Origin: a virus
Lineage: Duplodnaviria > Caudoviricetes
IMG/VR virus record: IMGVR_UViG_3300035070_002022
Coordinates: 1 to 58,762 of that record
DNA: 58,762 nt
Direction: 5' to 3' (one strand)
Shown: in pieces, positions 6,746-42,100 of the stretch
How positions within the stretch are numbered: position 1 is the first letter of the stretch
Layout of the letters: every line of letters starts with the position of its first letter
Made by a program: the position numbers and the translations under genes
Notes under the pieces: generated by a model
What the model saw: only the letters and a program-made list of their open reading frames with translations
What the model was told of the DNA's origin: nothing
Database searches by the model: none

Positions 6746-6760
6746 AAGATTTGATTTTAT

Positions 6761-6792
6761 TATATAATCACACGTTTTTTTTAAAAACTTGT
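6761..6792 (-). promoter_or_regulatory. Class II phage promoter (degenerate upstream box)
   Basis: Minus strand ACAAG-N13-CGTGT-GATTAT-ATA, 15 nt before the ATG at 6745. Confidence 0.6.
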
Positions 6793-11565: not shown

Positions 11566-11580
11566 TTAATTAGATTTTAT

Positions 11581-11612
11581 TATATAATCACGCGTAATTT
11601 AAAAAAACTACG
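11581..11612 (-). promoter_or_regulatory. Class II phage promoter (groEL operon)
   Basis: Minus strand CGTAG-N13-CGCGT-GATTAT-ATA, 15 nt upstream of the groEL ATG. Confidence 0.72.
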
Positions 11613-21500: not shown

Positions 21501-21525
21501 TTATTAACATTTTAGTACTATAATA

Positions 21526-21557
21526 TATATTATCACACGAATTATCAAAAAGCTACG
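21526..21557 (-). promoter_or_regulatory. Class II phage promoter (fibre operon)
   Basis: Minus strand CGTAG-N13-CGTGT-GATAAT-ATA upstream of the ATG at 21500. Confidence 0.72.
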
Positions 21558-21666
21558 GGCTGTAAAAATTTTTTGTTGCATAATTATGGGTATAGGGCTA
21601 TATATTATTTTTGAAAATGTTTTTCATTACGGAAATCGATTTCATTTTGCCCACCCCCCCTTGGTT

Positions 21667-21726
21667 TTTAGGGATTAGGGTTTAGGGTTTGCCTTTAGCC
21701 GCGGGTTTACGCCCAGGGTTTAGGGG
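21667..21726 (+). repeat. TTTAGGG-like heptamer repeats with six G-tracts
   Basis: TTTAGGG ATTAGGG TTTAGGG ... GGG ... AGGG TTTAGGGG. Confidence 0.8.
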
Positions 21727-21765
21727 TACTAGCTAGGCCTTAGCCAAGGTGCTTGCACGCATCGC

Positions 21766-21787
21766 GTGTATAGCAACGCGTATAGCA
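21766..21787 (+). repeat. 22-bp repeat GTGTATAGCAACGCGTATAGCA, copy 1
   Basis: Identical to 22555-22576 and 23305-23326. Confidence 0.9.
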
Positions 21788-21789
21788 TT

Positions 21790-21831
21790 TTGCAGACGGT
21801 TTACGTAGTGTTTTAGATAATATAGGTGTAA
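21790..21831 (+). promoter_or_regulatory. Class I (early) promoter 1
   Basis: TTGCAGAC-ggttt-ACG-N10-GATAATA-tagg-TGTAA. Confidence 0.8.
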
Positions 21832-21860
21832 GATAATAATAATAATAAATAATAATAACT

Positions 21861-21932
21861 ATGATAATATTCTTGATCGCAATACCAATGGCTTTAATAG
21901 CAACCTTCCTAAGATGTAACTGGGATGATTAA
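21861..21932 (+). CDS. Hydrophobic micropeptide A (23 aa)
   Basis: MIIFLIAIPMALIATFLRCNWDD after the promoter and AACTATG; paralogous to 22667-22798. Confidence 0.65.
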   Translation: MIIFLIAIPMALIATFLRCNWDD

Positions 21933-21965
21933 CCTCAGCCTGTCCTTGACACCAGGGCGGATCCT

Positions 21966-22007
21966 TCGCAGACAAACCACGTCTACTATAAGATAATATA
22001 AATGTAA
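21966..22007 (+). promoter_or_regulatory. Class I promoter 2
   Basis: TCGCAGAC-aaacc-ACG-N10-GATAATA-taaa-TGTAA. Confidence 0.78.
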
Positions 22008-22026
22008 GTAACTAAATATAATAACT

Positions 22027-22206
22027 ATGACAAAGATTCTATTCAATACAGTCTACAAGACTATCAACCAGATTACCAACAGTAACAAACTAAACAGACC
22101 AGTCCATATAATATACGGCGGACTGATGGCTGACAACAGTGACATCGAAACAATAACTAAGATACTCGACCGAGAAGTAATAAAGTATAAACTAAAATTC
22201 ATATAA
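22027..22206 (+). CDS. Early hypothetical protein (59 aa)
   Basis: MTKILFNTVYK...; AACTATG start after promoter 2. Confidence 0.65.
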   Translation: MTKILFNTVYKTINQITNSNKLNRPVHIIYGGLMADNSDIETITKILDREVIKYKLKFI

Positions 22207-22208
22207 CT

Positions 22209-22355
22209 ATGAGAATGAAACTAACTGAACAAGAGCAACGAATGTATGACCACTGGGATAGCCTTAGCCTACACACGAACTCATACCAGATCCAACAAGA
22301 ACGACACAATATGTGGATCAATACAATACTTAATAACCGAACTAAAACCAAATAA
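22209..22355 (+). CDS. Early hypothetical protein (48 aa)
   Basis: MRMKLTEQEQRMYDHWD...; TAA-CT-ATG coupling. Confidence 0.65.
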   Translation: MRMKLTEQEQRMYDHWDSLSLHTNSYQIQQERHNMWINTILNNRTKTK

Positions 22356-22356
22356 T

Positions 22357-22524
22357 ATGTATCAAACAAATCAACAAGCATGGGACGAAGTAACCCGTGA
22401 ATACCAAGACTCACTCAGAAGAACTGAGGTGTGCCAAAGAATGTTCGGACAGGATAACCTGATCGGCTTAACGGAAGAACAAAAGTTTACGTTCTGGAAT
22501 GAATGCTGGAAGGAGATCTTCTAA
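22357..22524 (+). CDS. Early hypothetical protein (55 aa)
   Basis: MYQTNQQAWDEV...; start re-assigned from the track's 22246 to follow the upstream stop. Confidence 0.65.
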   Translation: MYQTNQQAWDEVTREYQDSLRRTEVCQRMFGQDNLIGLTEEQKFTFWNECWKEIF

Positions 22525-22554
22525 GCACAGCGCAGCGGCGGCAACGCCGGAGGC

Positions 22555-22576
22555 GTGTATAGCAACGCGTATAGCA
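22555..22576 (+). repeat. 22-bp repeat, copy 2
   Basis: GTGTATAGCAACGCGTATAGCA. Confidence 0.9.
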
Positions 22577-22586
22577 AATGGAGAAC

Positions 22587-22628
22587 TTGCAGACGAATTA
22601 CGTTGTATTTTAGATAATATATGTGAAT
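22587..22628 (+). promoter_or_regulatory. Class I promoter 3
   Basis: TTGCAGAC-gaatt-ACG-N10-GATAATA-tatg-TGAAT. Confidence 0.8.
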
Positions 22629-22666
22629 AAAGAAATTAATAATAATAACTAATAAATAAAATAAAT

Positions 22667-22798
22667 ATGATTTTAATCGCAATCGCAATTCCAGTAGCAT
22701 TAGCAGCAACGTTCTTAAGAACTAACAACAACACACAAACCTTTAAGGAGATCCTTGAGGACCTTGGACGCGGAGCCGGGCATGCCATGAGAAATTAA
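22667..22798 (+). CDS. Micropeptide B (43 aa), hydrophobic N-terminus
   Basis: MILIAIAIPVALAATFLRTNNNTQTFKEILEDLGRGAGHAMRN. Confidence 0.65.
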   Translation: MILIAIAIPVALAATFLRTNNNTQTFKEILEDLGRGAGHAMRN

Positions 22799-22831
22799 CC
22801 TCAACATGTCCTTGATACCGAGGAGAGAATT

Positions 22832-22873
22832 TTGCAGACAAACTACGACTATAAATAGATAATATAACTGAAT
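22832..22873 (+). promoter_or_regulatory. Class I promoter 4
   Basis: TTGCAGAC-aaact-ACG-N10-GATAATA-taac-TGAAT. Confidence 0.8.
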
Positions 22874-22903
22874 ACTAATAATAATAACTAAACACTAATA
22901 ACT

Positions 22904-23221
22904 ATGAATACAAATGAAATTTTATCAAACGCACTAAAAACTATGTCAAACGAAGAAAAAGCTAAAATCTTCCCACCGATCGAAAGAAAGAACTTCGTAG
23001 TCCGTGAAAGCTGGATGAACCGAAATCAAATCATAACCTTTGTGAATAACAAAAATCAAAAAGTTACTTACAATCATGATGAGGTGTTGAATGCAATGCT
23101 ACCTAAGTTACAGTTCCAAGCTTGCTGGCTCAAGCGAAAGTACTGGTCACAAAGTACTAACTTGCCAACGAATGTACGCCACCTGGCTACGATCGAAGAG
23201 CTCGAGTCTACTGAAAAGTAG
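22904..23221 (+). CDS. Early hypothetical protein
   Basis: 105-aa ORF, AACTATG start. Confidence 0.8.
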   Translation: MNTNEILSNALKTMSNEEKAKIFPPIERKNFVVRESWMNRNQIITFVNNKNQKVTYNHDEVLNAMLPKLQFQACWLKRKYWSQSTNLPTNVRHLATIEELESTEK

Positions 23222-23304
23222 GCTTAAGCTTTGGCTAGTAACTTAACACACCGCAAAGTGTGTATAGCATAGGTATGTTCCGACCTCAACGGCCGGTGCA
23301 AGCG

Positions 23305-23326
23305 GTGTATAGCAACGCGTATAGCA
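23305..23326 (+). repeat. 22-bp repeat, copy 3
   Basis: GTGTATAGCAACGCGTATAGCA; an extra half-site lies at 23260-23269. Confidence 0.9.
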
Positions 23327-23343
23327 CGGTAAAAGCGGTCACC

Positions 23344-23385
23344 TTGCAGACGAATTACGCTCACCTAAAGATAATATATGTGAAT
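23344..23385 (+). promoter_or_regulatory. Class I promoter 5
   Basis: TTGCAGAC-gaatt-ACG-N10-GATAATA-tatg-TGAAT. Confidence 0.8.
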
Positions 23386-23400
23386 ACAAAATAACACACT

Positions 23401-23556
23401 ATGGAAAAAGAATTTAAAGATTGGATGGAAGACGGTAATGTAGAAAAGATCGGTGAAGATACCTATATTGAGCAGACTACTCAGTGGAGAAAGAAATTTA
23501 CGATGTCCGAGTTAATCGGGTTTTACAACCGAGAGTACCGATTGAGTCAGTTTTAA
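23401..23556 (+). CDS. Early hypothetical protein (51 aa)
   Basis: MEKEFKDWMEDGNVEK... after promoter 5. Confidence 0.65.
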   Translation: MEKEFKDWMEDGNVEKIGEDTYIEQTTQWRKKFTMSELIGFYNREYRLSQF

Positions 23557-23581
23557 GAGTCGATGTAGAAAAAAACGGATC

Positions 23582-23714
23582 TCACTGAGCTAACTTAGTG
23601 AATAACTAAGCTTTTGGTAATAAATACTAGAGTAGTGTAGTCAGAGACTAACTATTAGACTAGAGTACTAATTTACTCATGGTAATAAAAGTACACTTAA
23701 AGAACTAGTATTTA
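23582..23714 (+). ncRNA. Candidate structured non-coding element
   Basis: Hairpin TCACTGAG/CTTAGTGA, then nested stems TAAATACTAG/CTAGTATTTA, AGTGTA/TACACT and GAGTA/TACTC. Confidence 0.35.
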
Positions 23715-23828
23715 ATTAAATTAATATAATTACATGTTTAGGGGTGAAAGCTACAGTAAATATGGGATTATTTTAAGGAATAAGTGGTATTAAGTGCTTG
23801 CAAGTGGCTACGGTAATGGTTGTCATGG

Positions 23829-23870
23829 TTGCAGACTAATTACGAACACCTTTTGATAATATAAATGTAA
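23829..23870 (+). promoter_or_regulatory. Class I promoter 6
   Basis: TTGCAGAC-taatt-ACG-N10-GATAATA-taaa-TGTAA. Confidence 0.8.
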
Positions 23871-23898
23871 CTAAAAATAACTAATAAAACTATAAAAT

Positions 23899-24051
23899 AT
23901 GTGGAGTAACTGTTGTGGCGCTGAAGCCAGCTATTTAAGCGATGAATTATGTGGTGATTGCCTAGAGCACGCTGTATTTGATGATGAAGACGAAGATATG
24001 GGTGACACCTGTAGAAACGGAAAAGAATGGAATAAATGTAACTGTTGTTAA
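23899..24051 (+). CDS. Cys-rich acidic small protein (50 aa, 8 Cys)
   Basis: MWSNCCGA...LCGDCLEHA...CRNGKEWNKCNCC. Confidence 0.7.
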   Translation: MWSNCCGAEASYLSDELCGDCLEHAVFDDEDEDMGDTCRNGKEWNKCNCC

Positions 24052-24053
24052 CT

Positions 24054-24245
24054 ATGATACTAGATATGCAATTAACCGACGAAGAAATAAAAGAAATAGC
24101 GGATCGTATGGACGACCTAATGTGGGAGGGATTCCACGATATAGTAGACGATGTGTACCGCCAACGTGAAGATTCCTCGTATGACTACGAGATTTGGGAC
24201 GAAGATATAATTAAAGTAAGAAAAGAATTAAGAAAATATATATAA
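24054..24245 (+). CDS. Acidic early protein
   Basis: MILDMQLTDEEIKE...; TAA-CT-ATG start. Confidence 0.7.
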   Translation: MILDMQLTDEEIKEIADRMDDLMWEGFHDIVDDVYRQREDSSYDYEIWDEDIIKVRKELRKYI

Positions 24246-24247
24246 CT

Positions 24248-24424
24248 ATGGAATTTAATGTAACACTAACTAACACTGAACACAATGTACTAATGGTTGC
24301 GCTCGACCACATGTACGAACACCTAGACGATCTGCGAGGTGAGTGGGATGACGAAGATGCAGAAATTATTAATGTAAAAAGAATGGCGGACGTTAGGTTA
24401 CTACAAAAACTATTTAAACAATAA
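24248..24424 (+). CDS. Early hypothetical protein (58 aa)
   Basis: MEFNVTLTNTEHNVLMVALDH...; TAA-CT-ATG start. Confidence 0.68.
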   Translation: MEFNVTLTNTEHNVLMVALDHMYEHLDDLRGEWDDEDAEIINVKRMADVRLLQKLFKQ

Positions 24425-24428
24425 AACT

Positions 24429-24644
24429 ATGAAAAATAACGAATACGTATACCTATGGGTACTAGATTTTAATGACGGACAAGTATATAAATATAACATA
24501 GACAAAGCAATATACAACGATTACCCCGATCACTGCGAAGATTACATGCAAAAAGTAGGTCACGAAATTAATAACGTACAGTGGATGGTATCCCCTTACG
24601 ATGAAGTGCTAGACGAAAATAACGGGTGGAACGTTGCAGACTAA
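24429..24644 (+). CDS. Early hypothetical protein
   Basis: 71 aa; ends VAD* inside promoter 7. Confidence 0.75.
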   Translation: MKNNEYVYLWVLDFNDGQVYKYNIDKAIYNDYPDHCEDYMQKVGHEINNVQWMVSPYDEVLDENNGWNVAD

Positions 24645-24675
24645 ATACGTACACCGATCGATAATAACAATGTAA
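24634..24675 (+). promoter_or_regulatory. Class I promoter 7
   Basis: TTGCAGAC-taaat-ACG-N10-GATAATA-acaa-TGTAA. Confidence 0.8.
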
Positions 24676-24695
24676 CTAACCAACAATATATAACT

Positions 24696-24851
24696 ATGAC
24701 TAAAGAATTATCACCCTTACAACGTTCGTTCGATCGAATCAACGAATTAATACCAGACAACAGCGACGTAATGCTCCGATGTAGCTTATACGAAATGTGC
24801 GCTGAATTAACTAACGAATCCTTCGCTGAAGGAATTAACGCTAAATACTAA
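24696..24851 (+). CDS. Early hypothetical protein (51 aa)
   Basis: MTKELSPLQRSFDRI...; AACTATG start. Confidence 0.65.
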   Translation: MTKELSPLQRSFDRINELIPDNSDVMLRCSLYEMCAELTNESFAEGINAKY

Positions 24852-24856
24852 TAACT

Positions 24857-25189
24857 ATGAATTACAAAGTAAAAATTAACGACCGAAGCTTAAGTATAAA
24901 CCTAATGCACAACAGTGTTATCGATCTCGGTATATTCACTGTAAAAGCTACAACTCACACATTCTTGTTTGAAGCTAAAGACACTGATTGGGGTGCGGAT
25001 ATAAATGAAACGGAACTTGAGTTCTACGTCAACAACAAACGATGCAAGTATGTAGGGTTCAAAGAATTGTACACTCAATTATACGGTAACTCCTTTAAAA
25101 CCTTTGAAGCCGATATAATAAGGCAAACCGAAGAAGTGGTTGCAAAACAAATTGTTAAAGAATATCCAGGAACTGATGTAAACTATTAA
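24857..25189 (+). CDS. Early hypothetical protein
   Basis: 110-aa ORF, AACTATG start. Confidence 0.8.
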   Translation: MNYKVKINDRSLSINLMHNSVIDLGIFTVKATTHTFLFEAKDTDWGADINETELEFYVNNKRCKYVGFKELYTQLYGNSFKTFEADIIRQTEEVVAKQIVKEYPGTDVNY

Positions 25190-25200
25190 ATATAACAACT

Positions 25201-25401
25201 ATGAAAAATGTAAATACCTTTATCGAAAAAGAATTAACGAACCTAAATCGCGGCATCATAGCTACGCCTAGCGAAGATTACCTCGATCAATTTACCGATG
25301 CTAACCACGGAACCAACGATTTTTTACTAATGCAAATGTCAAAGCAGTACGGCTACAAGCTAGCGTTACTTGCTATACGCGAACAACTAAAAACCAAATA
25401 A
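25201..25401 (+). CDS. Early hypothetical protein
   Basis: 66-aa ORF, AACTATG start. Confidence 0.75.
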   Translation: MKNVNTFIEKELTNLNRGIIATPSEDYLDQFTDANHGTNDFLLMQMSKQYGYKLALLAIREQLKTK

Positions 25402-25403
25402 CT

Positions 25404-25607
25404 ATGAATACAATTAAATTTAACAGAGTAACTAAAAATATTATATTAAACGGTGTAGGCTATCGACCATACGCTGTCGGCGAACTACCTAACTCATTCG
25501 GTTTCTTATCGAATGAAGACAGCGAGCAAGACGGTATATCTAAGTGGTTCAACCTCAACGGCTTAACCTATGTCAAAGATGATAGACCTAAAAACAAAAG
25601 GTATTAG
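25404..25607 (+). CDS. Early hypothetical protein
   Basis: 67-aa ORF, TAA-CT-ATG start. Confidence 0.75.
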   Translation: MNTIKFNRVTKNIILNGVGYRPYAVGELPNSFGFLSNEDSEQDGISKWFNLNGLTYVKDDRPKNKRY

Positions 25608-25609
25608 CG

Positions 25610-25651
25610 TTGCAGACAAAGCACGCTTACCGATCGATAATATATATGAAT
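25610..25651 (+). promoter_or_regulatory. Class I promoter 8
   Basis: TTGCAGAC-aaagc-ACG-N10-GATAATA-tata-TGAAT. Confidence 0.8.
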
Positions 25652-25667
25652 TTAAAACCAAACTATT

Positions 25668-25733
25668 ATGACTAAATTAAAAAAATTATTTACTAACCTA
25701 GCCATCGGCGCTGCCTATGCTATACGCAATTAA
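25668..25733 (+). CDS. Micropeptide C (21 aa)
   Basis: MTKLKKLFTNLAIGAAYAIRN; similar to the C-terminal half of micropeptide B. Confidence 0.6.
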   Translation: MTKLKKLFTNLAIGAAYAIRN

Positions 25734-25735
25734 CT

Positions 25736-25930
25736 ATGACACTAACTGAACACCAAAAAAACGAACTCAATACTGTAGCAGACTCTATTGCGTACTATAT
25801 TGAAGACCATTTACGTGAAACTATATCATGGCAAATGCCGGATAGCTTAGTAGATGATTTGCAAGAAGAACAATTCATGGACGCTATGGGATATGCGTAC
25901 GAAAAAGTATTACAATTACTAACAGAATAA
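25736..25930 (+). CDS. Acidic early protein
   Basis: 64 aa, TAA-CT-ATG start. Confidence 0.75.
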   Translation: MTLTEHQKNELNTVADSIAYYIEDHLRETISWQMPDSLVDDLQEEQFMDAMGYAYEKVLQLLTE

Positions 25931-26100
25931 GTAGTATCACGAATGACAGCGTAATTAACTGAAAGCACGGTGCAAGTCCGATCCTGCAAAGGAAGATAAC
26001 TACTAGGCGAAAGATACGATTCATGATCACGTAATAGCCGCTAACCGCGAAAGGAACGCCACTTAGCTAGTGAAGGAGTTCGAATCTCCTTGCGGTTACT
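25931..26100 (+). ncRNA. Candidate structured ncRNA ending in a tRNA-like acceptor/T-arm module
   Basis: AGGAG-TTCGAAT-CTCCT T-arm stacked on AACCGCG/TGCGGTT; upstream CGG-TGCAAGT-CCG and TCCT-GCAA-AGGA hairpins inside GTAGT.ATC/GAT.ACTAC. Confidence 0.55.
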
Positions 26101-26116
26101 AATTTTAAACTAAACT

Positions 26117-26476
26117 ATGGGAAGACTAATTGAAATATCACCACAACAAGATGTTGTTAATAAAATTAATGCGAAAGCAGATTTTACTCACAACATAAAC
26201 CAAACAAGACTAGAGCGCTACACTGTTAGCATAAAAAATGTGTTTACAGGTAAAAACCCATCGCTATTTCTTAAAGATACATGGAAAGTGGTAGACGATG
26301 CATTTAATAGCGATCAAGAACTGCTTGGCGGTTGGCTAAGTGAAGATGATATATATTTTCTTGACTATGGATTAAGCGTAACCGATCTTAAAAAAGCTAT
26401 GAAAATAGCTAAATTTAACAAACAATTAGCAATATACGACAATGTGTCGCAAAAAGTAATACCAGTTGCAGACTAA
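26117..26476 (+). CDS. Early protein, possible SAM-lyase-like fold
   Basis: GGW...YFLD...AMKIAKFNKQLAIYD; CDS is solid, function is tentative. Confidence 0.45.
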   Translation: MGRLIEISPQQDVVNKINAKADFTHNINQTRLERYTVSIKNVFTGKNPSLFLKDTWKVVDDAFNSDQELLGGWLSEDDIYFLDYGLSVTDLKKAMKIAKFNKQLAIYDNVSQKVIPVAD

Positions 26477-26507
26477 TCACGTCTACCTAATGATAATATA
26501 ACTGAAT
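26466..26507 (+). promoter_or_regulatory. Class I promoter 9
   Basis: TTGCAGAC-taatc-ACG-N10-GATAATA-taac-TGAAT. Confidence 0.8.
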
Positions 26508-26523
26508 ACAAAATCTAATAACT

Positions 26524-27006
26524 ATGAATATATTTTATTTACATAGCGATCCAGTTATCGCTGCCGAAAAACAATACAATAAACACGTTGTCAAGATGAT
26601 ACTTGAGTCAGCACAGCTACTGTGTTCAGCTCATCACATGCTAGATAGTGAGATAGATGTCCCCTACAAACTAACACACAAAAACCATCCGAGTGCTGTG
26701 TGGACCAGACAATCTAGACAAAACTACGCATGGCTGTATTTTCACATGTTAGCTCTTGGCGACGAATATACTAAGCGCTACGGAAAAAAGCACCTGACCA
26801 TAACTAAGTGCGAAGACGTGCTGTCTAAAACACCTGGTCCGATCTTTAATACCGGCTTGACTGAAATGCCACAATGTATGCCAGACGAGTATAAAGTTTC
26901 AGGCGATTCCGTAGCCGCTTATCGTAATTACTACATCAAAGCAAAATCACACTGCGCAAACCCTGCTAAAGAATTGCTATACGTTAAACCCGAACAATTC
27001 GACTAA
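26524..27006 (+). CDS. Pyrimidine-dimer DNA glycosylase family protein (DenV-like)
   Basis: MNIFYL...HVVKMILESAQLL...YKLTHKNHP...PQCMPDEYK...AYRNYY. Confidence 0.8.
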   Translation: MNIFYLHSDPVIAAEKQYNKHVVKMILESAQLLCSAHHMLDSEIDVPYKLTHKNHPSAVWTRQSRQNYAWLYFHMLALGDEYTKRYGKKHLTITKCEDVLSKTPGPIFNTGLTEMPQCMPDEYKVSGDSVAAYRNYYIKAKSHCANPAKELLYVKPEQFD

Positions 27007-27009
27007 ATT

Positions 27010-27159
27010 ATGAGTAAATTCATGATATACAATGCAGATGAAGTAACCTTCATACTAGCAAAAACCCTAGACGAAGCTAGACAATGGGCAATAATGTATT
27101 GCGATCATTCATACGAAATAATAGTAAGAGAAATAAGTGATATTAAATATAAATACTAA
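27010..27159 (+). CDS. Early hypothetical protein (49 aa)
   Basis: MSKFMIYNADEVTFILAKTLDEARQWA... Confidence 0.65.
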   Translation: MSKFMIYNADEVTFILAKTLDEARQWAIMYCDHSYEIIVREISDIKYKY

Positions 27160-27164
27160 AAACT

Positions 27165-27392
27165 ATGAGTAAAGTAACTAAAGAAATCCTGATCGTAGAA
27201 TCAGAAGCGGTGATCTATGCACAGTATAAACACCGAGAAGAAGAACTAATGGTAATGTTTAATCGCGGTGCGACTTACACTTACTTCGATGTACCAACCC
27301 ACGTATGGCGTGGATTACAGACTGCACATTCAGTTGGCAGCTTTGTAAGTAAACACGTACGAATGAAGTTTGAATTTAAACTTACAGACTAA
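27165..27392 (+). CDS. KTSC domain protein
   Basis: VESEAV...Y....EELMVMFNRGATYTYFDVP..VW.GL..A.SVGSF. Confidence 0.85.
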   Translation: MSKVTKEILIVESEAVIYAQYKHREEELMVMFNRGATYTYFDVPTHVWRGLQTAHSVGSFVSKHVRMKFEFKLTD

Positions 27393-27423
27393 ACACGATT
27401 AATAATAGATAATACAATTGAAT
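27382..27423 (+). promoter_or_regulatory. Class I promoter 10
   Basis: TTACAGAC-taaac-ACG-N10-GATAATA-caat-TGAAT. Confidence 0.75.
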
Positions 27424-27443
27424 AATAACTAAATAAATATAAT

Positions 27444-27809
27444 ATGGAAATGACTAAAGAAGAATTACAAAGAAAAGTAGATGAGTTAACACAATCGCTA
27501 GACTCGTTCAGCAAAAACACTGAGATGCTAAAGCAAGATCTTAAAGACGCCGAACATAAACTAAGTGTAGTTAACCGTCCTAAAATTACTAAAAAGTTTT
27601 TAGATGAGCTAAGTGATACTATCGAGGAGGCTGTAGGCAACATAGATTTTACTGATACCAATGCGTACGATTTTGATTTTGAAATAGACTACGATAACAG
27701 AATTGCGTTGAGTAATATAGAATACAATGGCGCGCACGAAATAGGTGATGAAATTTTCTGCAGAGTAGAAGATATGTTTAACGTAACACCGGATGAAGAT
27801 GAGAACTAG
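27444..27809 (+). CDS. Acidic coiled-coil early protein
   Basis: 121 aa; N-terminal heptads, very acidic C-terminal half. Confidence 0.8.
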   Translation: MEMTKEELQRKVDELTQSLDSFSKNTEMLKQDLKDAEHKLSVVNRPKITKKFLDELSDTIEEAVGNIDFTDTNAYDFDFEIDYDNRIALSNIEYNGAHEIGDEIFCRVEDMFNVTPDEDEN

Positions 27810-28068
27810 AGTAAGACAAATGTACACAAGGGGTGGTAATCTTGCCCCTAACCAATTTTTGCTATACACACCTGACGGCACGTACTTCCAAAGTTATAAC
27901 AGTACAATCGCTTTTCGTGATCACAACGGCAAAATACAACTCGACGAAAACACCTGGGATTATTCACGCACTACTGGCAAGTATCGTAACGAATTCTTAG
28001 GTGAATATAAAGAACTAACTAAAGATAAAATATTATCTGGTGAATACCAGTTAACTAACTTAAATTAG
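27793..28068 (+). CDS. Conserved phage hypothetical protein
   Basis: NQF...FQSYNSTIA...WDYSRTTGKYRNEFLG, a pattern recurrent in phage early genes. Confidence 0.75.
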   Translation: MKMRTRVRQMYTRGGNLAPNQFLLYTPDGTYFQSYNSTIAFRDHNGKIQLDENTWDYSRTTGKYRNEFLGEYKELTKDKILSGEYQLTNLN

Positions 28069-28071
28069 AGT

Positions 28072-28302
28072 ATGACAGAAGAAGAGATCCAAAAGATCGT
28101 AGATATGATCGTAGAAGAATTGTTTAAACGTATGGATGCTGAGGCTAGGGCAATGAATGAAGAATTTATTCATGAGCTACCCAGTGACGAAGAGCAAATT
28201 AAAGAGCTAGGATTGTTGCTTAAGTATTACGAGAAGATAGAAGATTATGCTCACGCTGCAAATGTTTTTGCAAATATAAAACGGTTACAAAATAATAAAT
28301 AA
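28072..28302 (+). CDS. Small protein with a UVR (UvrB/UvrC)-like coiled motif
   Basis: C-terminal YEKIEDYAHAANVFANIKRL. Confidence 0.55.
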   Translation: MTEEEIQKIVDMIVEELFKRMDAEARAMNEEFIHELPSDEEQIKELGLLLKYYEKIEDYAHAANVFANIKRLQNNK

Positions 28303-28398
28303 AGCTACCCCTAAATTATTGTGGATATTTAAACTAGTAGTTATTATTTTTGATTAAAAATAAATATTAAACTACTATTAAAATTGTTTAAGTATACA

Positions 28399-28430
28399 TA
28401 TATAATCACGTGTTTTTATGACAAACATGC
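28399..28430 (-). promoter_or_regulatory. Class II-like promoter pointing antisense into the early region
   Basis: Minus strand GCATG-N13-CACGT-GATTAT-ATA; no substantial ORF downstream. Confidence 0.5.
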
Positions 28431-28463
28431 GCGGTATTATGCTAAAGTTTAAAGAAATAATAT

Positions 28464-28616
28464 ATGAATTCAAATGATAAATTAAACGAAGACATCGAGT
28501 ATCCTACTACAGCTAGTAAGTTTGATGCGTGGATGCGTAAAATAAATAATCAGTATTACTCTAATCATCAAGCTATGACAGAGGCATACAAAAAAATGCA
28601 GAATGAAAAAATATAA
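28464..28616 (+). CDS. Hypothetical protein (50 aa)
   Basis: MNSNDKLNEDIEYP...; overlaps the sigma start. Confidence 0.55.
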   Translation: MNSNDKLNEDIEYPTTASKFDAWMRKINNQYYSNHQAMTEAYKKMQNEKI

Positions 28617-29373
28617 TATAAGTAACTACGTTAGATACCAAAAAGATCTTAAACGTACATTAAATAATTTACCTGGTTTATTTTGGGAGGAGTATACCAG
28701 AGATCAACTTATAACTAAGTTCATGCCTTTAACGGAAAACTTAGCAAGAAAATTTGCTACATCACATCAAGCAATTGGTGTGCTAACTATAAATGATCTG
28801 ATACAGTCAGGACATGTAGGTTTAATCAATGCTATCGATAAAATAGATTGGGTAGTGCTAAATGAATCTAAAAATGTAGAACAAACTTTAAAATCTTTTC
28901 TATCAAAAAGAATTAAGGGTACTATTCGAAGATATATTAATCACAACATGGGTGATATCAAAATACCTGAGTGGAAGATCACAGAAATACGTAAGCAACC
29001 AAATAACCCAGCAGTTAGTAATTTGCTAAGCAAATCTAAATCCTTATATATGAGTGATTTTACCGCAAACAATGATAGTGAATCTAATTACGAACTTGAG
29101 ATAGCTGACGATGCACCAGATTACAATGTTACATTTATGAACGAGTATCTTTTAGCATTAATTAAAAAGCATTTAACCGATCGTGAAAGAGAAGTTATAA
29201 GGCTAAGTTATGGTCTTGATTGTGATAAGCATGATGCTGTTGAAATCTGTGAGATACTGGGTATCGAGGGATCTTACAAGAAGAAAGGTGTACGTATATC
29301 AGAGATAAAACGCAAGGCTATTGACAAGCTGATTGACCGTACAAATGATGCACAACTACCTGATTTACTTTAA
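28603..29373 (+). CDS. Phage RNA polymerase sigma-70-family factor
   Basis: Region 2 NDLIQSGHVGLINAIDKID; region 4 LTDREREVIRLSYGL...EICEILG...RISEIKRKAIDKL. Confidence 0.9.
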   Translation: MKKYNISNYVRYQKDLKRTLNNLPGLFWEEYTRDQLITKFMPLTENLARKFATSHQAIGVLTINDLIQSGHVGLINAIDKIDWVVLNESKNVEQTLKSFLSKRIKGTIRRYINHNMGDIKIPEWKITEIRKQPNNPAVSNLLSKSKSLYMSDFTANNDSESNYELEIADDAPDYNVTFMNEYLLALIKKHLTDREREVIRLSYGLDCDKHDAVEICEILGIEGSYKKKGVRISEIKRKAIDKLIDRTNDAQLPDLL

Positions 29374-29392
29374 TTTATAATTAAAAATAAAG

Positions 29393-29424
29393 CGTAGTTT
29401 ATTTAAAAAATGTGTAATTATATA
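29393..29424 (+). promoter_or_regulatory. Class II promoter (replication operon)
   Basis: CGTAG-N13-TGTGT-AATTAT-ATA upstream of the ATG at 29464. Confidence 0.65.
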
Positions 29425-29463
29425 TATAACACCAAAGTATTTAAACCAATAAAAACTATATAA

Positions 29464-30036
29464 ATGAAATCAAATTTAAAAATTAAATTAGCCAATATTC
29501 AGGTTAATCTTAAAGCTAAAAAATCCAGATACAATGGGTTTGGTAAATATAATTACCGTGCTGCAGAAGATATACTTGAGGCTATAAAGCCGTTCTTGAA
29601 TCATGAGAAGTGTACGGTTACCATTAATGAAGAATTAATATCTATTGACCCACCAATATTAAAATCAACGGCTAGTATTCATGATGCTGAATCCGACGAT
29701 GCTATACACTCCGACGCTATTGTCGGTGTTGATCTGCTATCTAAAGGTATGTCTATGCCACAAAAATATGGTGCAGCCTCATCTTATGCTAAAAAATATG
29801 CGTTAGGTAACTTATTACTTATTGATGATACGGCAGATGCAGATGCATCTAATGATCACAGTGGTAAGAAAGCTCAGGAAGAGATTACATCAAAAAAATC
29901 TGCACTATATGCTAAAGCATTAAAGTTTGTGCAAGGGGGCGGAGATTTAGAAGCTATATCTAAAAAGTACAAAATGACAGCGGCAGTTAAGAAGGGTCTT
30001 GAAGAAGCAATACCAACTAAAACCGAAACTCTATAA
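29464..30036 (+). CDS. ERF-family single-strand annealing protein
   Basis: YNGFGKYNYRAAEDILEAIKP...QKYGAASSYAKKYALGNLLLIDD. Confidence 0.9.
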   Translation: MKSNLKIKLANIQVNLKAKKSRYNGFGKYNYRAAEDILEAIKPFLNHEKCTVTINEELISIDPPILKSTASIHDAESDDAIHSDAIVGVDLLSKGMSMPQKYGAASSYAKKYALGNLLLIDDTADADASNDHSGKKAQEEITSKKSALYAKALKFVQGGGDLEAISKKYKMTAAVKKGLEEAIPTKTETL

Positions 30037-30788
30037 TGACGGACGCAAAACAAAAAGAAGTAATTGAATTACTTAGAAGCGACGAAGAGTATTATGACGG
30101 TATAGGTAGACAGTATAGATCAAACTCTGATATATACAAGTTACTTAATGATCCTGAGCAATTTGGAAAGCCAACTGAACAGAACATAAACTTTATAATA
30201 GGTGGTTACATACACACTGCAATACTTGAACCCGATAAACTAGAAGCTAACTATCTTATATCAGAAGCAACAAGCAGAGTAACTAAAGTTTACAAACAAG
30301 ATGTCGCGGACAACGGCGGTAAGATGATGATCTTACGAAAAGAAGTTGAAAAATGCGACATAATGATTAATAAAATAAAAAACAATTCAGTATGTCAATC
30401 TTTATTAGAAGGAGAGCAGGTTATATACGAAGAACCTGGTATCAAAAAAATAAATGATACTTGGTGGAAAGGTAAAGCCGATTGTATCAACAAAGACCAA
30501 GGCTTAATAGTAGATATAAAAACTACTGGCGATATAAATAGATTTAAAAAGAGTGCTAACATATATAACTATGACAGTCAAGCGTACATATATAAAGAGA
30601 TATTTGGATACGATTTAGTGTTCCTCGTAATATGCAAAAAGACACATCAGATAGCTATATACGATTGCTCTGAAGAATTCTATAGTAGAGGCCGTCAGAA
30701 AGTTAAAGCTGCCGTAGAAGCGTACGAAACGCTAATAAACGATCCTTTGTTTGATCTTAAGGACTATGTGAAGACAGATACATTATAG
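30036..30788 (+). CDS. PD-(D/E)XK exonuclease (RecE/DUF3799-like)
   Basis: G..IHTAILEP, KGKAD, IVDIKTT, YNYDSQAYIY. Confidence 0.85.
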   Translation: MTDAKQKEVIELLRSDEEYYDGIGRQYRSNSDIYKLLNDPEQFGKPTEQNINFIIGGYIHTAILEPDKLEANYLISEATSRVTKVYKQDVADNGGKMMILRKEVEKCDIMINKIKNNSVCQSLLEGEQVIYEEPGIKKINDTWWKGKADCINKDQGLIVDIKTTGDINRFKKSANIYNYDSQAYIYKEIFGYDLVFLVICKKTHQIAIYDCSEEFYSRGRQKVKAAVEAYETLINDPLFDLKDYVKTDTL

Positions 30789-30830
30789 TTGCAGACTAAA
30801 TACGATCAACAAAAGATAATACACATGAAT
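30789..30830 (+). promoter_or_regulatory. Class I promoter 11 (internal to the replication operon)
   Basis: TTGCAGAC-taaat-ACG-N10-GATAATA-caca-TGAAT, directly after the exonuclease stop. Confidence 0.78.
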
Positions 30831-31439: not shown

Positions 31440-31471
31440 GGGAGTATATAGAAATGTATGCTCCCTTTTTT
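31440..31471 (+). terminator. Intrinsic terminator
   Basis: GGGAGTATA...TATGCTCCC followed by TTTTTT. Confidence 0.75.
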
Positions 31472-39173: not shown

Positions 39174-42100
39174 TTATTTTAAAGAATTTTTTCTTTTTTT
39201 ATTTTGTAACTCTATTATTTTAAGTATCCTACTTTCTTCTGAACTTAAACCACGTAATTGAGTTTTAGTTACGCCTGCATTCCATAAAAAATCAACTTGC
39301 TCTGCTTTGCTTAGATCTTTTAAAACCTTCATTCTCGCTTGCATTGCTTTGCTATACTTGTTTTTTTCTTTTTTAGGTTTTTCAATTTTAACAGGCTCAC
39401 CTATTTCTTCTCCTCGGCTAATAGCCTCCATATCCTTGTCAAATTGCTTTTTGTTTTGAATGTCCATTAGCCTATCAATCCTGTCGGCTTCTTTAGTAAG
39501 ACTTTTCAATTCTGTTTTAGTAACACCCGCATTCCATAACATATCTACTTGCTCTTTCTTGCTTAAGTCTTTTAGCGCCTTCCTTCTTTTTTCAGTAGGA
39601 TCAAGCTTGTCATATTCTTTATCCTCTTTAAGCCCCTTGAATCTTTCCTTAGCCTCTTCTCTTTCAGCCTTAGTATCTTCTTCCGACATCAATTGCCACT
39701 TAGGCCAACCTAAAGCAATTAAAGGTTTCATCCATGTTTCAGTTTCATCGCTAGCTATATCAACAGCATCTATAGCCATGCCTTGCGCACGATCCAACGG
39801 CAAACCAGTTAGAGCAGCAACCGTATTCGTAGCAGCTGTAACGTATGGATGCTTTAAGGACATTTCGTCAAACTCTATTTCTTTCTTACCCCATTCAAAA
39901 GCATTACCAACTTTACCCGCTTTGCTTAGCTTACTAGATATAGGCGGAGATATTTTCATCACCTCATCCTTAATTGTTGCTGCTAGGTTTTGATTCCTGG
40001 TTTTTTGACTTCTTTCATAAAGCTTTATAGCTAAATTCTTAGCTACAGATACAACAGCCCCGGCTACACCAATACCCCTTAGTATACCATCGGTCATTGA
40101 GTTAGCCACTTTAATAGCCTTTTTAGTTTTGCTAGCACTTTTAGCTGCAGTGTCTTCTTCGCTTTCGTCTTCGTCGTCTCCCATCATTGCCGCAAACATC
40201 GCTTGCTGTAAAAAGTTAAATACAACGTTCTGAAGAACACCATAATAAACTATTCTGGATAGATGCGTCTTAGCATCTCCTCGGCCATTCTTAAGATCCT
40301 GAGCGGCTCTTTTTATTATCCTAGCATATTGCGACGGCGTGTTAGCAAAAGCTAATATAATGCGCCCTATTGGCTCCGCTTGTTGTTTAGATATCTTACT
40401 TGGATCACTTGACTGCTGAGATACTTCGGCAGTAGCTATGAAATCTTCCATTGCTTGTTTCTCAGCTTGCTCTAACGTATACCCAGTACCATTAATAGTT
40501 TTCTCGTTTAAGTAAGTGTTAACTCTATTTCTATAGAAAGACGCACCCCCTGTTGCAATAGCGGCACTATCCGCCATCTTAGTTGGTATAAATCCTACTT
40601 GCAAAATCTTTGCTAATACACCTTGAAATCCGTTTTCTTTGGCTGTTGTAGCAATATCTGCTTCGTTTACATTGATTTTCAAACCATCTCGCCTGTCAAC
40701 CAGGTAATCGGAATTCATAAGATATACCCAGTCTTTCCAATATTGCGGTTGATTAGCAAACGCTTTACCAGCTTGATAAAGATTATTCCCTTCAAAGTTT
40801 ATAAAGTTAGTAAAAGATATTAGCTGTAGTACAGCGGATCTTCTATTAAGGAACATGATATTACCCACCGCAGCATTTAGCCATCTAACAATACCATCTG
40901 TAACACCGTTATTGGTTGGCGTTGAGTTTCTACCCGTTCGCATTCTTCTTAAAGAATCTTTTAATGCAGTTACATAAGGCTTACCATAAGCAGCTTCTAA
41001 TTTGTTTAAATTAGTAGCTGTGAATATAGCGTCAACGTTCTGCTGCCATACTTCTAGTAATTGCTTTCTGCCGTCGGTGTTCAATGTATTAAGTAAATCC
41101 GACGTTATAGTACCCGCTGGCCAACTTTCTGTAGGAGCTTTTGGATCAACATTTTTGTTAAGACCCAATAACTTGTCCGCAAAAGCTTTCAAATCAGGGT
41201 TGGAATTTACATAGTTAACTAATATAGGCAAATCAACATTAGATAAACCAGGTATGTCAAGCCCCTGCGCATCCCAAGTATACACTCTGATAGCATCTTC
41301 TTTGGTAAACAAGCTTTCCTTCATGTTACCGTTCTCGTCTTCATACTTAAAATTCCTCTTAAGAGTTCTAGGTACAATACCTAGCTCTTTTTTAAGCGCC
41401 TTATAGTTTTTAGCTATAGTTATTCTACCGGTTCTTAAACCTGTAACCGCTTTTCCGTAAGGATCCAACAAATGCTCTTTATAAAAAGCCATAGCTGATT
41501 CACCCTTCTTGCCTTTAGGTAATGTAGTATACAACAAACCTAAGAAATCTTCAGCAGATGGTGGAACAAAGAATTTAAACTTACCTTTTTTAGCACCCTT
41601 TTTAGCTGCTTTAACAGATTGATATTCCTTAAAAGCTTCTATTCCAGATTCTTCTTCAATTATTTCGTTGAATCTTTTACTAAGCTGTAGGCTGCTTTTA
41701 ACTCTCGCTTGTTGCACTTTACTCTTAACATCGAGTACAGACAGAACTTCTTTAACAGCTTTAACGTTGCCTATGTGATCATCCGCAAAGTAAAAATCAT
41801 TGTACCCCTCCGCAAATTTACTAAGCACCCAATTAGCTTTTGCCTGCGGGTCTGAGTTAGCAAGACCAGTAATATTAGCTAACGGAATGTCAAGGCCAAT
41901 ACCTTTAAGAAATTCGTGTATAGCAAGAGCACTGTTAGCGGGTCTAGCGGTTAATATGAATACGTTTTCGTTACCAAATTTTTTGTTTCTAGCCATAGCC
42001 TTTTCAAAAAACGGTCCCTTAGCCCCTTTAACAACCTTGCTAAATTCACTAAAATCAAATTCAGCACCACTGGCCAGCATAGCGTCGCCCTCTTTAGCGA

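What the first reader, a model, noticed from the sequence alone, without database searches (positions are those of the whole stretch)
21790..30830. Eleven copies of a rigid four-part 42-bp motif define a phage-specific early promoter class
Seen: TTGCAGAC-N5-ACG-N10-GATAATA-N4-TGWAW with invariant spacing at 21790, 21966, 22587, 22832, 23344, 23829, 24634, 25610, 26466, 27382 and 30789. All are on the + strand, each ~15-40 nt before an ATG. Known: the Bacteroidota housekeeping promoter is TTTG-N19-21-TAnnTTTG, and sigma70 uses TTGACA-N17-TATAAT; neither matches, although the TA-N4-TG end loosely echoes the -7 box. Inference: -35 = GCAGAC, 18-bp spacer carrying a conserved ACG near -24, -10 = GATAAT, start at TG/GA. 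An invariant mid-spacer triplet is unusual and suggests a dedicated recognition factor.
Basis: partly seen in the sequence, partly recalled or inferred. Interest (0 to 1): 0.85.

Follow-up and report, generated by a model that had tools for sequence, protein, structure and literature searches.

The report
Phage-specific promoter class with own sigma
Eleven near-identical 42-base signals head the small early-type genes of an uncultured marine phage; they are almost certainly promoters, shared by a very large phage family that carries its own sigma factor, and that factor rather than the host's is the likeliest reader.

Summary
There are 11 copies (9 exact, 2 with one mismatch), all on the + strand, against 0.01 expected by chance. 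Each lies 15-38 nt before an ATG.

The motif is not private to this genome. The window is a whole IMG/VR phage record. Of 53 related phage loci with at least 5 kb of upstream flank, 50 carry at least 3 copies. The relaxed motif occurs 464 times on the gene strand and 24 times on the other, with rigid spacing. TTGCAGAC is a lineage variant of a family-wide TTACAAAC. The ACG triplet is lost in some lineages.

It does not match the Bacteroidota housekeeping promoter (0 of 11). It forms no hairpin and matches no Rfam family.

All relatives encode a sigma-70-family protein; here it is 28603-29373. Two cultured relatives without this sigma lack the motif, and at least one uses host-type TAnnTTTG boxes.

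Best reading: a promoter class read by host core polymerase carrying the phage sigma. That would make it self-reinforcing delayed-early or middle, not necessarily the very first transcription. This last step is inferred. No transcript data could be obtained.

The parts
21790..21831 (+). class I promoter copy 1 (exact); precedes a 23-codon membrane-peptide ORF, ATG at 21861
21966..22007 (+). copy 2 (TCGCAGAC, 1 mismatch); ATG at 22027
22587..22628 (+). copy 3 (exact); ATG at 22667; part of a duplicated unit of promoter plus small peptide gene
22832..22873 (+). copy 4 (exact); ATG at 22904
23344..23385 (+). copy 5 (exact); ATG at 23401
23829..23870 (+). copy 6 (exact); ATG at 23899; heads four small ORFs
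24634..24675 (+). copy 7 (exact); overlaps the stop of ORF 24429-24644; ATG at 24696
25610..25651 (+). copy 8 (exact); ATG at 25668
26466..26507 (+). copy 9 (exact); overlaps the stop of ORF 26117-26476; ATG at 26524
27382..27423 (+). copy 10 (TTACAGAC, 1 mismatch); overlaps the stop of ORF 27165-27392; ATG at 27444
30789..30830 (+). copy 11 (exact); starts the base after the exonuclease gene stop; ATG at 30849; heads the small ORFs before the replication and nucleotide-metabolism genes. A site at this relative place (+2.0 to +2.5 kb from the sigma start) recurs at 22 sites across the 80 related loci
28603..29373 (+). phage sigma-70-family factor (256 aa), the candidate reader of the motif
   Evidence: TIGR02937 52.2 bits against a cut-off of 42.9, 9 of 9 homologues. 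phrog_351 1.4e-19. PDB profile hits SigA 6.6e-9 and FliA 1e-8. The top 50 Foldseek hits shown are sigma chains or sigma-containing RNA polymerase complexes
28464..28616 (+). 50-codon ORF overlapping the sigma start; this small ORF plus sigma is seen again in the four relatives read here (G003, G004, G006, and by homology G000)

Best explanation
The 11 sites are copies of one promoter class ('class I'). It drives the plus-strand block of small early-type genes and, through the copy at 30789, the small ORFs before the replication and nucleotide-metabolism genes. The phage is an uncultured ~60-kb podovirus of marine Flavobacteriia.

Anatomy, counted from an inferred start at motif position 39-41:
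- An upstream half of two blocks one helical turn apart: TTGCAGAC at about -38 to -31, and ACG at about -25 to -23.
- A -10-like GATAAT(A) at -12 to -7, with the A(-11) and T(-7) that sigma-70-family factors flip out.
- A start region TGWAW, followed by an A-rich leader without a Shine-Dalgarno sequence.

The site does not fit the host housekeeping sigma. I propose it is read by host core RNA polymerase carrying the phage's own sigma-70-family protein (28603-29373). The class would then be delayed-early or middle and self-reinforcing, because in relatives the sigma gene itself lies behind such a site.

Shown: the motif, its rigidity, its family-wide conservation, its placement, the sigma gene, and their co-occurrence.
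Inferred: that it is a promoter, where transcription starts, and which factor reads it.
Unknown: how the first sigma molecules are made.
For: Promoter-like behaviour:
- 11 of 11 sites are on the gene strand and lie 15-38 nt before an ATG.
- In 80 related loci (1.27 Mb) the core ACG-N10-GATAAT occurs 363 times on the sigma strand and 5 on the other. The relaxed definition gives 464 against 24.
- The median distance to the ATG is 16 nt but varies. Internal spacings are rigid: TTRCARA-N19 gives 224 hits against at most 5 at N18 or N20; ACG-N10 gives 391 against at most 18; -N4-TGWA gives 233 against at most 26.

Not a host-type promoter:
- 0 of 11 sites contain TAnnTTTG.
- TAnnTTTG occurs in 8 of 199 upstream regions of seven family genomes, which I estimate to be about chance.
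- It occurs in 7 of 35 upstream regions of the sigma-less relative Cellulophaga phage phi38:1.

Sigma link:
- The sigma is a real sigma-70-family protein.
- It is present in 9 of 15 motif-bearing records tested, including 4 of 4 that are at least 90% complete.
- Conversely, 50 of 53 sigma-bearing loci with at least 5 kb of upstream flank carry at least 3 sites.
- phi38:1 and Flavobacterium phage elemoF_6-3D share 11 and 15 proteins with this phage. Neither has a sigma homologue.
- The elemo phage also lacks the motif: 0 and 1 core hits on its two strands, and 0 TTRCARA-N19-kATAAT. phi38:1 was not scanned for the motif.
- No other polymerase was found. There are no Pfam RNA-polymerase domains in the 37 window ORFs scanned. 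No conserved DxDxD motif occurs in seven genomes.

Precedent for a sigma gene behind its own promoter class: phages phiEco32 and 7-11 (PMC4331800, passages read).
Against:
- The sigma gene lies downstream of class I sites. It is directly downstream in G004, and 21 sites fall within 500 nt upstream of sigma across the 80 loci. A first supply of sigma therefore needs another route, which I could not identify. No consistent host-type promoter sits near sigma.
- I found no clean co-variation between the sigma DNA-binding helices and the motif variants. L082 has a near-identical sigma but TATAAT and no upstream 8-mer.
- Two sigma-bearing loci with full flanks (L142, L149) show no class I site.
- Phage sigmas classically serve late genes. 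A second candidate promoter class heads the structural block and could be the sigma's real target.
- The sigma model is only moderately confident (mean pLDDT 63).
Confidence: 0.5

Rival explanations
1. Class I sites are true early promoters read by unmodified host RNA polymerase, with sigma-A or another host sigma. The phage sigma, made from these transcripts, then switches on the second motif class that heads the recombination and structural genes. This is the classical early-to-late cascade.
For: - The sites head small ORFs of unknown function, typical of early host-takeover genes.
- The sigma gene lies downstream of class I, directly so in G004. Across the 80 loci, 21 sites lie within 500 nt upstream of sigma.
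- A distinct candidate motif (GTAGYTTTTT-N10-GTRATTATATAAT) precedes the first gene of the minus block, two internal structural operons and ERF.
Against: - 0 of 11 sites contain TAnnTTTG, and no TTG lies at the right distance.
- The sigma-less relative phi38:1 does use TAnnTTTG, and the sigma-less elemo phage lacks class I.
- Two scans of 185,579 species genomes found the motif only as single, chance-level hits or on phage-like fragments. The multi-site loci checked carry phage genes. No host regulon was seen.
- The copies change in concert between phage lineages.
Confidence: 0.2
2. Composite site. A weak -10-like element is used by host polymerase only when a phage-encoded activator or sigma-remodelling pair binds the upstream TTGCAGAC-N5-ACG half, as in T4 MotA/AsiA 'sigma appropriation'. 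Alternatively, the upstream half is an operator for a phage repressor that shuts the early genes off.
For: - The two upstream blocks are 10-11 bp apart, on one face of the helix. They are evolutionarily separable from the -10 block: lineages keep GATAAT but lose either ACG or the 8-mer.
- ACG lies 10 bp from the -10 element. From recall, the T4 MotA box lies about 12 bp from its -10.
- A further repeat, GTGTATAGCAACGCGTATAGCA, abuts three of the sites. This suggests extra DNA-binding regulators act here.
Against: - No activator candidate is shared by the family. The 206-aa HTH protein next to sigma in G005-G008 is absent from this genome and from G003 and G004.
- The -10-like element itself does not fit host sigma-A.
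Confidence: 0.1
3. The sites are promoters for a polymerase or factor delivered with the DNA. The model is crAss-like and N4-like phages; candidates here are the 3210-aa protein or a packaged sigma.
For: - The tail has crAss-type muzzle proteins: PF25729 at 2.6e-10 and PF25731 at 1.9e-10.
- A 3210-aa protein lies in the virion block.
- No host-type promoter that could start the programme was found.
- Earlier notes of this scan raise packaged sigmas in other phages. These are leads only.
Against: - No D[FY]DxD motif occurs in the 3210-aa protein or the six other large window ORFs checked. No conserved DxDxD-type motif occurs in any called ORF of the seven genomes, the giant protein included.
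- Only the C-terminal ~700-1000 residues of the giant protein are conserved in most relatives.
- There are no PDB or Pfam hits for a polymerase.
- The sites form no hairpin of the N4 type.
- A GATAAT -10 element points to a sigma-type reader.
Confidence: 0.07
4. Not a promoter: an RNA-level signal (a processing or translation element) or a DNA site for replication, packaging or recombination.
For: There is no direct transcript evidence. The conserved TGTAA/TGAAT end always contains a stop codon.
Against: - No structure beyond shuffles: z between -2.16 and +1.12, with 10 of 11 sites having |z| < 1.2.
- No Rfam match.
- The distance to the ATG varies (15-38 nt) while the internal spacing is rigid.
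- The sites are confined to one strand and to gene starts of one block.
Confidence: 0.05

Closest known systems
Promoters of the phage-encoded sigma of phiEco32 (gp36) and phage 7-11 (PMC4331800, passages read)
   Same: A lytic phage encodes its own sigma-70-family factor. A phage-specific motif, absent from host consensus, repeats before phage genes. The sigma gene itself lies behind phage-specific promoters, giving positive feedback.
   Different: Those motifs are single short -10-type blocks (TAATGTATA; TGATGT with TG and TATA flanks). They serve middle and late genes, while clear host sigma-70 promoters drive the early genes. Here the motif has four blocks over 42 bp and heads the early-type genes. 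No host-type promoters are evident, and the host is a Bacteroidota bacterium.
Bacteroidota housekeeping (sigma-A) promoter, TTTG-N19-21-TAnnTTTG (consensus recalled; seen here in phi38:1)
   Same: Same host phylum. The leaders are A-rich and lack Shine-Dalgarno sequences. The TA-N4-TG at motif positions 32-39 loosely echoes the -7 box.
   Different: 0 of 11 sites contain TAnnTTTG. The TTG at positions 1-3 lies 23 nt from GATAAT, not 19-21 nt from a -7 box.
Sigma-28 (FliA/SigD) class promoters, TAAA-N15-GCCGATAA (consensus recalled)
   Same: The family-wide -10 block is often tCGATAAT: C at position 26 in 139 of 363 sites. It shares GATAA with GCCGATAA. An A-rich CAAA lies about 16 nt upstream. 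FliA is the best full-length solved match of the sigma (1rp3, E 1e-8).
   Different: In this window position 26 is A in 7, T in 2 and C in 2 of the 11 sites. There is no GCC and no TAAA at N15. The sigma scores 37 bits against a cut-off of 189.6 for the FliA/WhiG family. From general knowledge, Flavobacteriia have no flagellar sigma.
T7-type and N4-type phage-polymerase promoters (recalled)
   Same: Long, rigid, near-identical copies are repeated before phage genes.
   Different: No phage RNA polymerase was detected. There is no hairpin. The -10-like GATAAT suggests a sigma-dependent multisubunit enzyme.
T4 middle promoters (MotA box plus sigma-70 -10; recalled)
   Same: A -10 element is combined with a conserved box closer than a normal -35. 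Here that box is ACG, 10 bp upstream.
   Different: No MotA- or AsiA-like proteins were found. There is an additional 8-mer further upstream, and the phage has its own sigma.

Membership tests
Sigma-70-family-dependent promoter (bipartite -35/-10) | -10 hexamer with A at -11 and T at -7 | tested here: met
   GATAAT is invariant in 11 of 11 sites. The family uses GATAAT or, in two lineages, TATAAT.
Sigma-70-family-dependent promoter (bipartite -35/-10) | -35 element 16-18 bp upstream of the -10 | tested here: inconclusive
   GCAGAC ends 18 bp upstream, but it is not TTGACA-like. The TTG is 3 bp too far upstream, and the element is dispensable in L082 and L106.
Sigma-70-family-dependent promoter (bipartite -35/-10) | transcription starts 6-8 nt after the -10 and depends on a sigma-core holoenzyme | not testable with these tools
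No biochemical data exist.
Bacteroidota sigma-A promoter | -7 box TAnnTTTG | tested here: not met
   0 of 11 sites within -10 to +60 of the motif.
Bacteroidota sigma-A promoter | -33 TTTG 19-21 nt upstream of the -7 box | tested here: not met
   There is no -7 box to anchor it. TTTG-N17-22-TAnnTTTG occurs 4 times in the window, none at a class I site.
Sigma-28 class promoter (consensus recalled) | -10 GCCGATAA and -35 TAAA at 15 nt | tested here: not met
   Only GATAA is shared. Position 26 is C in 2 of 11 sites, and positions 5-8 are AGAC.
Phage-sigma promoter classes (phiEco32 / 7-11 type) | the phage encodes a sigma-70-family protein | tested here: met
   TIGR02937 above its cut-off in 9 of 9 homologues. 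phrog_351 1.4e-19. Sigma folds dominate the Foldseek hits. In the window protein alone, Pfam r2 and r4 fall below their gathering scores: 19.5 against 24, and 21.7 against 24.1.
Phage-sigma promoter classes (phiEco32 / 7-11 type) | motif and sigma co-occur and are absent from sigma-less relatives and from host chromosomes | tested here: met
   50 of 53 loci. 4 of 4 near-complete records. The elemo phage lacks both sigma and motif, and phi38:1 lacks the sigma; phi38:1 was not scanned for the motif. Genome scans give only phage fragments or single hits. Exceptions are L142 and L149.
Phage-sigma promoter classes (phiEco32 / 7-11 type) | the sigma binds and transcribes from the motif | not testable with these tools
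   Needs in vitro transcription or a reporter assay.
Single-subunit or virion RNA-polymerase promoters (T7, N4, crAss-like) | the phage encodes such a polymerase | tested here: not met
   No Pfam polymerase domain in the 37 window ORFs scanned. No conserved DxDxD. This is a sequence-level test only.

The most novel reading that the evidence does not exclude
This very abundant marine phage family may run its whole programme without the host's housekeeping sigma. Its own sigma would read a promoter with an unusual three-part upstream geometry: an 8-mer at -38 to -31, an ACG at -25, and a GATAAT -10. The first sigma molecules would arrive with the DNA as crAss-type virion cargo, so that host core polymerase is captured from the first minute. 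That would be a sigma-based counterpart of the injected polymerases of N4 and crAss-like phages.
Probability: 0.12. Interest if true: 0.8.

Novelty: new member of a known kind. Interest (0 to 1): 0.45.

Why it matters
The sigma family is very large. All 8000 scored protein clusters passed E 1e-5, the longest contigs are about 68 kb, and 514 IMG/VR stretches encode a relative. It is found in marine samples and linked to Flavobacteriia. Among cultured phages the sigma has only three weak (24-25% identity) matches, none in a Flavobacteriia phage.

A rigid, easily scanned promoter gives a way to annotate transcription units and early genes in thousands of uncultured genomes. It also gives a simple, testable pair (one 256-aa sigma and one 42-bp site) for studying how a phage redirects the unusual Bacteroidota RNA polymerase. 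No phage sigma or promoter class of this kind turned up in my literature searches. The pair could also serve as an orthogonal expression part for Flavobacteriia.

Tried and rejected
- RNA evidence. The look-up of sequencing runs listed marine metatranscriptomes holding at most 0.25 of the sampled words. No expression or 5'-end data exist, and no habitat claim is made from those shares.
- Co-variation of the sigma helices (regions 2.4/3.0 and 4.2) with motif variants across 80 loci. Differences follow clades, and no independent repeated switch was seen. This is uninformative.
- Host regulon. Two genome-collection scans gave 15 and 47 stretches. The multi-site stretches checked are phage fragments binned into MAGs. 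The single hits fit chance by my own rough estimate.
- Host-type promoter that could make the first sigma. TTG-N17-21-TAnnTTTG shows no positional peak near sigma in 80 loci. One TATTTTTG lies 120 nt before the sigma operon (28345) and another at 21606. Neither has a -33 element at 19-21 nt, and the first is not kept in G003.
- Phage polymerase. Regex, Pfam, PHROG and PDB searches of the large proteins were negative.
- Hairpin, RNA family and tRNA searches were negative.
- L142 and L149, which have sigma but no class I. I found no replacement motif.
- Megablast of the region against cultured phages found no match.
- Earlier notes of this scan hold nothing on this genome or this sigma.
- Papers. 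PMC4331800 was read in passages only. All other papers were seen as search listings only. Supplements were not consulted.

Full report
**1. Observation**

Nine are exact. Two have one mismatch in the first block: TCGCAGAC at 21966 and TTACAGAC at 27382. Shuffles give 0.01 matches, and none of 100 reached 11.

The window is the complete IMG/VR record of an uncultured virus: 58,762 bp, linear, estimated 91% complete. It holds 11 forward matches, none in reverse, and none for the backwards control.

Nineteen of the 42 columns are invariant (58 bits uncorrected). Each site is followed after 15-38 nt by an ATG that opens at least 20 codons. Three sites overlap the last codons and the TAA stop of the preceding ORF.

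**2. Genomic setting**

The genome has two divergent blocks.

- The minus-strand block holds virion genes:
  - tail fibres;
  - a GroEL-like gene and a crAss-type muzzle C-terminal domain;
  - a muzzle N-terminal domain and a holin;
  - a 3210-aa protein.
- The plus-strand block (21.8-38.8 kb) starts with about 25 small ORFs of unknown function. It continues with:
  - a 50-codon ORF plus a 256-aa sigma-like gene (28464-29373);
  - ERF and a PDDEXK exonuclease;
  - then primase-helicase, ThyA, MazG, DUF1064 and ribonucleotide reductase.

Ten motif copies head the small-ORF region. The eleventh starts one base after the exonuclease stop.

The host is very probably a member of the Flavobacteriia.
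- The 1558-aa muzzle-like protein finds 87 cultured-phage records. Of these, 86 are named for Flavobacterium, Cellulophaga, Tenacibaculum or Maribacter, and 1 is an unnamed Caudoviricetes.
- The primase's best hit is Cellulophaga phage phi10:1 at 42%.
- Start codons lack Shine-Dalgarno sequences and favour AACTATG: 13 of 39 plus-strand genes.

**3. The motif is a family trait**

The exact core TTGCAGAC-N5-ACG-N10-GATAATA occurs 47 times in 27 stretches of 21 other IMG/VR contigs. A matrix built from the window finds 5-13 sites in each of six fully fetched relatives, always on one strand.

Searching with an alignment of the sigma found 514 viral stretches encoding a relative; 80 were kept.

| Measure in the 80 loci (1.27 Mb) | Sigma strand | Other strand |
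|---|---|---|
| Core ACG-N10-GATAAT | 363 | 5 |
| Relaxed definition | 464 | 24 |

Of 53 loci with at least 5 kb upstream of sigma, 50 have at least 3 sites. L128 has 2, and L142 and L149 have none.

Spacing is rigid family-wide:

| Spacing tested | Hits at the preferred spacing | Hits at neighbouring spacings |
|---|---|---|
| TTRCARA-N19-kATAATA | 224 | at most 5 (N18, N20) |
| ACG-N10 | 391 | at most 18 |
| -N4-TGWA | 233 | at most 26 |

The family consensus is TTACAAAC-nAAtACGA-N9-GATAATATA-nn-TGwA, so the window's TTGCAGAC is a lineage variant.
- Some lineages lack ACG (L090, L094, L098, L102, L130).
- Others lack the upstream 8-mer and use TATAAT (L082, L106).
- Within each genome all copies carry the same variant.

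**4. What it is not**

- Not the Bacteroidota housekeeping promoter. No site contains TAnnTTTG. The box is not enriched in the window (73 found against 65 expected). In upstream regions of seven family genomes it occurs in 8 of 199, which I estimate to be about chance.
- As a benchmark, the sigma-less relative Cellulophaga phage phi38:1 has it in 7 of 35 upstream regions, in textbook position.
- Not an E. coli-type promoter class: 82 consensus matches against 69.9 +/- 7.4 in shuffles.
- No hairpin: 10 of 11 sites have |z| < 1.2. No Rfam family. No tRNA.

**5. The candidate reader**

ORF 28603-29373 is a sigma-70-family protein.
- Pfam regions 2 and 4 are weak in the window protein. They are found in 8 of 9 and 7 of 9 homologues.
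- TIGR02937 is above its cut-off in 9 of 9.
- phrog_351 scores 1.4e-19.
- A profile finds SigA, RpoD and FliA chains in the PDB, the best at 6.6e-9.
- In the AlphaFold model (mean pLDDT 63), region 2 is confident, region 4 is moderate and the linker is disordered. Its top 50 Foldseek hits shown are sigma chains or sigma-containing RNA polymerase complexes, with 86 hits at E <= 0.001.
- It belongs to no named subfamily. FliA/WhiG scores 37 bits against a cut-off of 189.6.

It is present in 9 of the 15 motif-bearing records tested, including all 4 that are at least 90% complete.

Two cultured relatives with the same genome plan share 15 and 11 proteins with this phage: Flavobacterium phage elemoF_6-3D (first 50 kb examined) and phi38:1.
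- Neither has a sigma homologue.
- The elemo phage also lacks the class I motif. phi38:1 was not scanned for it.

No phage RNA polymerase was detected by Pfam, PHROG, PDB or catalytic-motif searches.

**6. Mechanism proposed**

With GATAAT as the -10 element (A at -11, T at -7), the start falls at motif positions 39-41, inside the conserved TGWAW. That gives leaders of roughly 17-41 nt.

TTGCAGAC then lies at about -38 to -31 and ACG at about -25 to -23. These two blocks are one helical turn apart and could be read together. That they are read by region 4 of the sigma is inference.

The motif fits no host specificity, co-occurs with the sigma, and changes in concert within genomes.

The difficulty is supply. 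The sigma gene lies downstream of class I sites. It is directly downstream in G004, and 21 sites fall within 500 nt upstream of sigma across the 80 loci. This matches the positive-feedback layout described for phiEco32 and 7-11 (PMC4331800, passages). Those phages, however, also have host promoters before sigma, and I could not find an equivalent here.

In G005-G008 the sigma follows a 206-aa HTH gene (HTH_11) that this genome lacks. It is preceded by a conserved inverted-repeat element, GTGACA..AGCCC..ATAGTAAGrGGCTAATGTCAC, with compensatory changes.

**7. Main rival**

The classical cascade is the main rival: class I read by host polymerase, and the phage sigma serving a second, late class. 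It is kept alive by a second candidate motif, GTAGYTTTTT-N10-GTRATTATATAAT.
- It precedes the first minus-block gene, two internal structural operons and ERF in this lineage.
- Its -10 part (TATAAT-A) resembles that of class I.
- One sigma could therefore read both classes, with the upstream halves setting timing.

I could not separate these readings. Co-variation analysis was uninformative, and read data were unavailable.

**8. Novelty**

Five literature searches found no description of this phage family, its sigma or the motif (listings only). Phage-specific promoter classes tied to a phage sigma are a known kind, so this is a new member. Its distinguishing features are a four-block, 42-bp architecture and an apparent absence of host-type promoters. 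It sits in a very widespread marine family: 8000 of 8000 scored protein clusters passed E 1e-5.

Earlier notes of this scan on other phages describe phage-sigma early promoters and possibly packaged sigmas. I used them as leads only.

Noticed in passing
window 21764-21787, 22553-22576, 23303-23326 (+); half-site at 23252-23269: A 22-24-nt element, GTGTATAGCAACGCGTATAGCA (two GTATAGCA units 12 bp apart), lies 2, 10 and 17 nt upstream of three class I sites. In relative L082, TGTATAGC occupies the upstream-8-mer position of two class I sites (at 493 and 1306). It may be a regulator binding site.
   Followed up: partly
window 6754-6774 (-), 11574-11594 (-), about 21520-21560 (-), about 29390-29425 (+): A second candidate promoter class, GTAGYTTTTT-N10-(C)GTGTRATTATATAAT(A)AAAT. 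It lies before two structural operons, the first minus-block gene and ERF, and is conserved in G003 and G004.
   Followed up: partly
relatives: upstream of the HTH-sigma operon (e.g. L045:16410-16462; many of L089-L152) and of the first minus-block gene in G006, G007, G008: A conserved inverted repeat, GTGACA-(a)cAGCCC...ATAGTAAGrGGCT-AATGTCAC, spans a TATA-like loop and the start codon, with compensatory AGCTT/AAGCT variants. It could be an operator or a structured promoter for the sigma operon. It is absent in this form from the window.
   Followed up: partly
window 21655-21730: A cluster of TTAGGG/TTTAGGG-like repeats next to a C7 run in the divergent region between the two gene blocks. It could be an origin, packaging site or genome end.
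   Followed up: no
window 25930-26116: A 186-nt gap without an ORF contains a tRNA T-arm-like GGAGTTCGAATCTCC, yet ARAGORN and Rfam find nothing.
   Followed up: partly
window 21790-21965 versus 22587-22831: A segmental duplication of a unit made of a class I promoter, a small hydrophobic peptide gene (MIIFLIAIP... / MILIAIAIP...) and a hairpin-containing tail.
   Followed up: no
window, plus-strand gene starts 22027-27165: A start context of AACTATG occurs in 13 of 39 plus-strand genes. ACTATG occurs in 2 of 32 minus-strand genes. It is Kozak-like and lacks a Shine-Dalgarno sequence, fitting a Bacteroidota host. It is often formed by TAA stop + CT + ATG.
   Followed up: partly
window 31440-31465 (+): The strongest intrinsic-terminator-like hairpin of the block (11 pairs plus T6) lies only about 15 nt before the gene at 31486 that precedes primase-helicase. 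It is unclear how the replication genes downstream are transcribed.
   Followed up: no
window 39174-48806 (-): A 3210-aa protein with a polynucleotide-kinase-like stretch (residues 2197-2399; phrog_415, 4e-7). In most relatives only its C-terminal ~700-1000 residues are conserved. It is probably ejected cargo of a crAss-muzzle-type tail.
   Followed up: partly
Genome-contig loci L177, L178, L188, L198, L200, L162: Fragments or whole genomes of this phage family are binned into MAGs labelled Flavobacteriaceae, Sphingobacteriales, Bacteroidetes and even Aliivibrio. This is likely binning contamination, but the Flavobacteriaceae cases fit the inferred host.
   Followed up: partly
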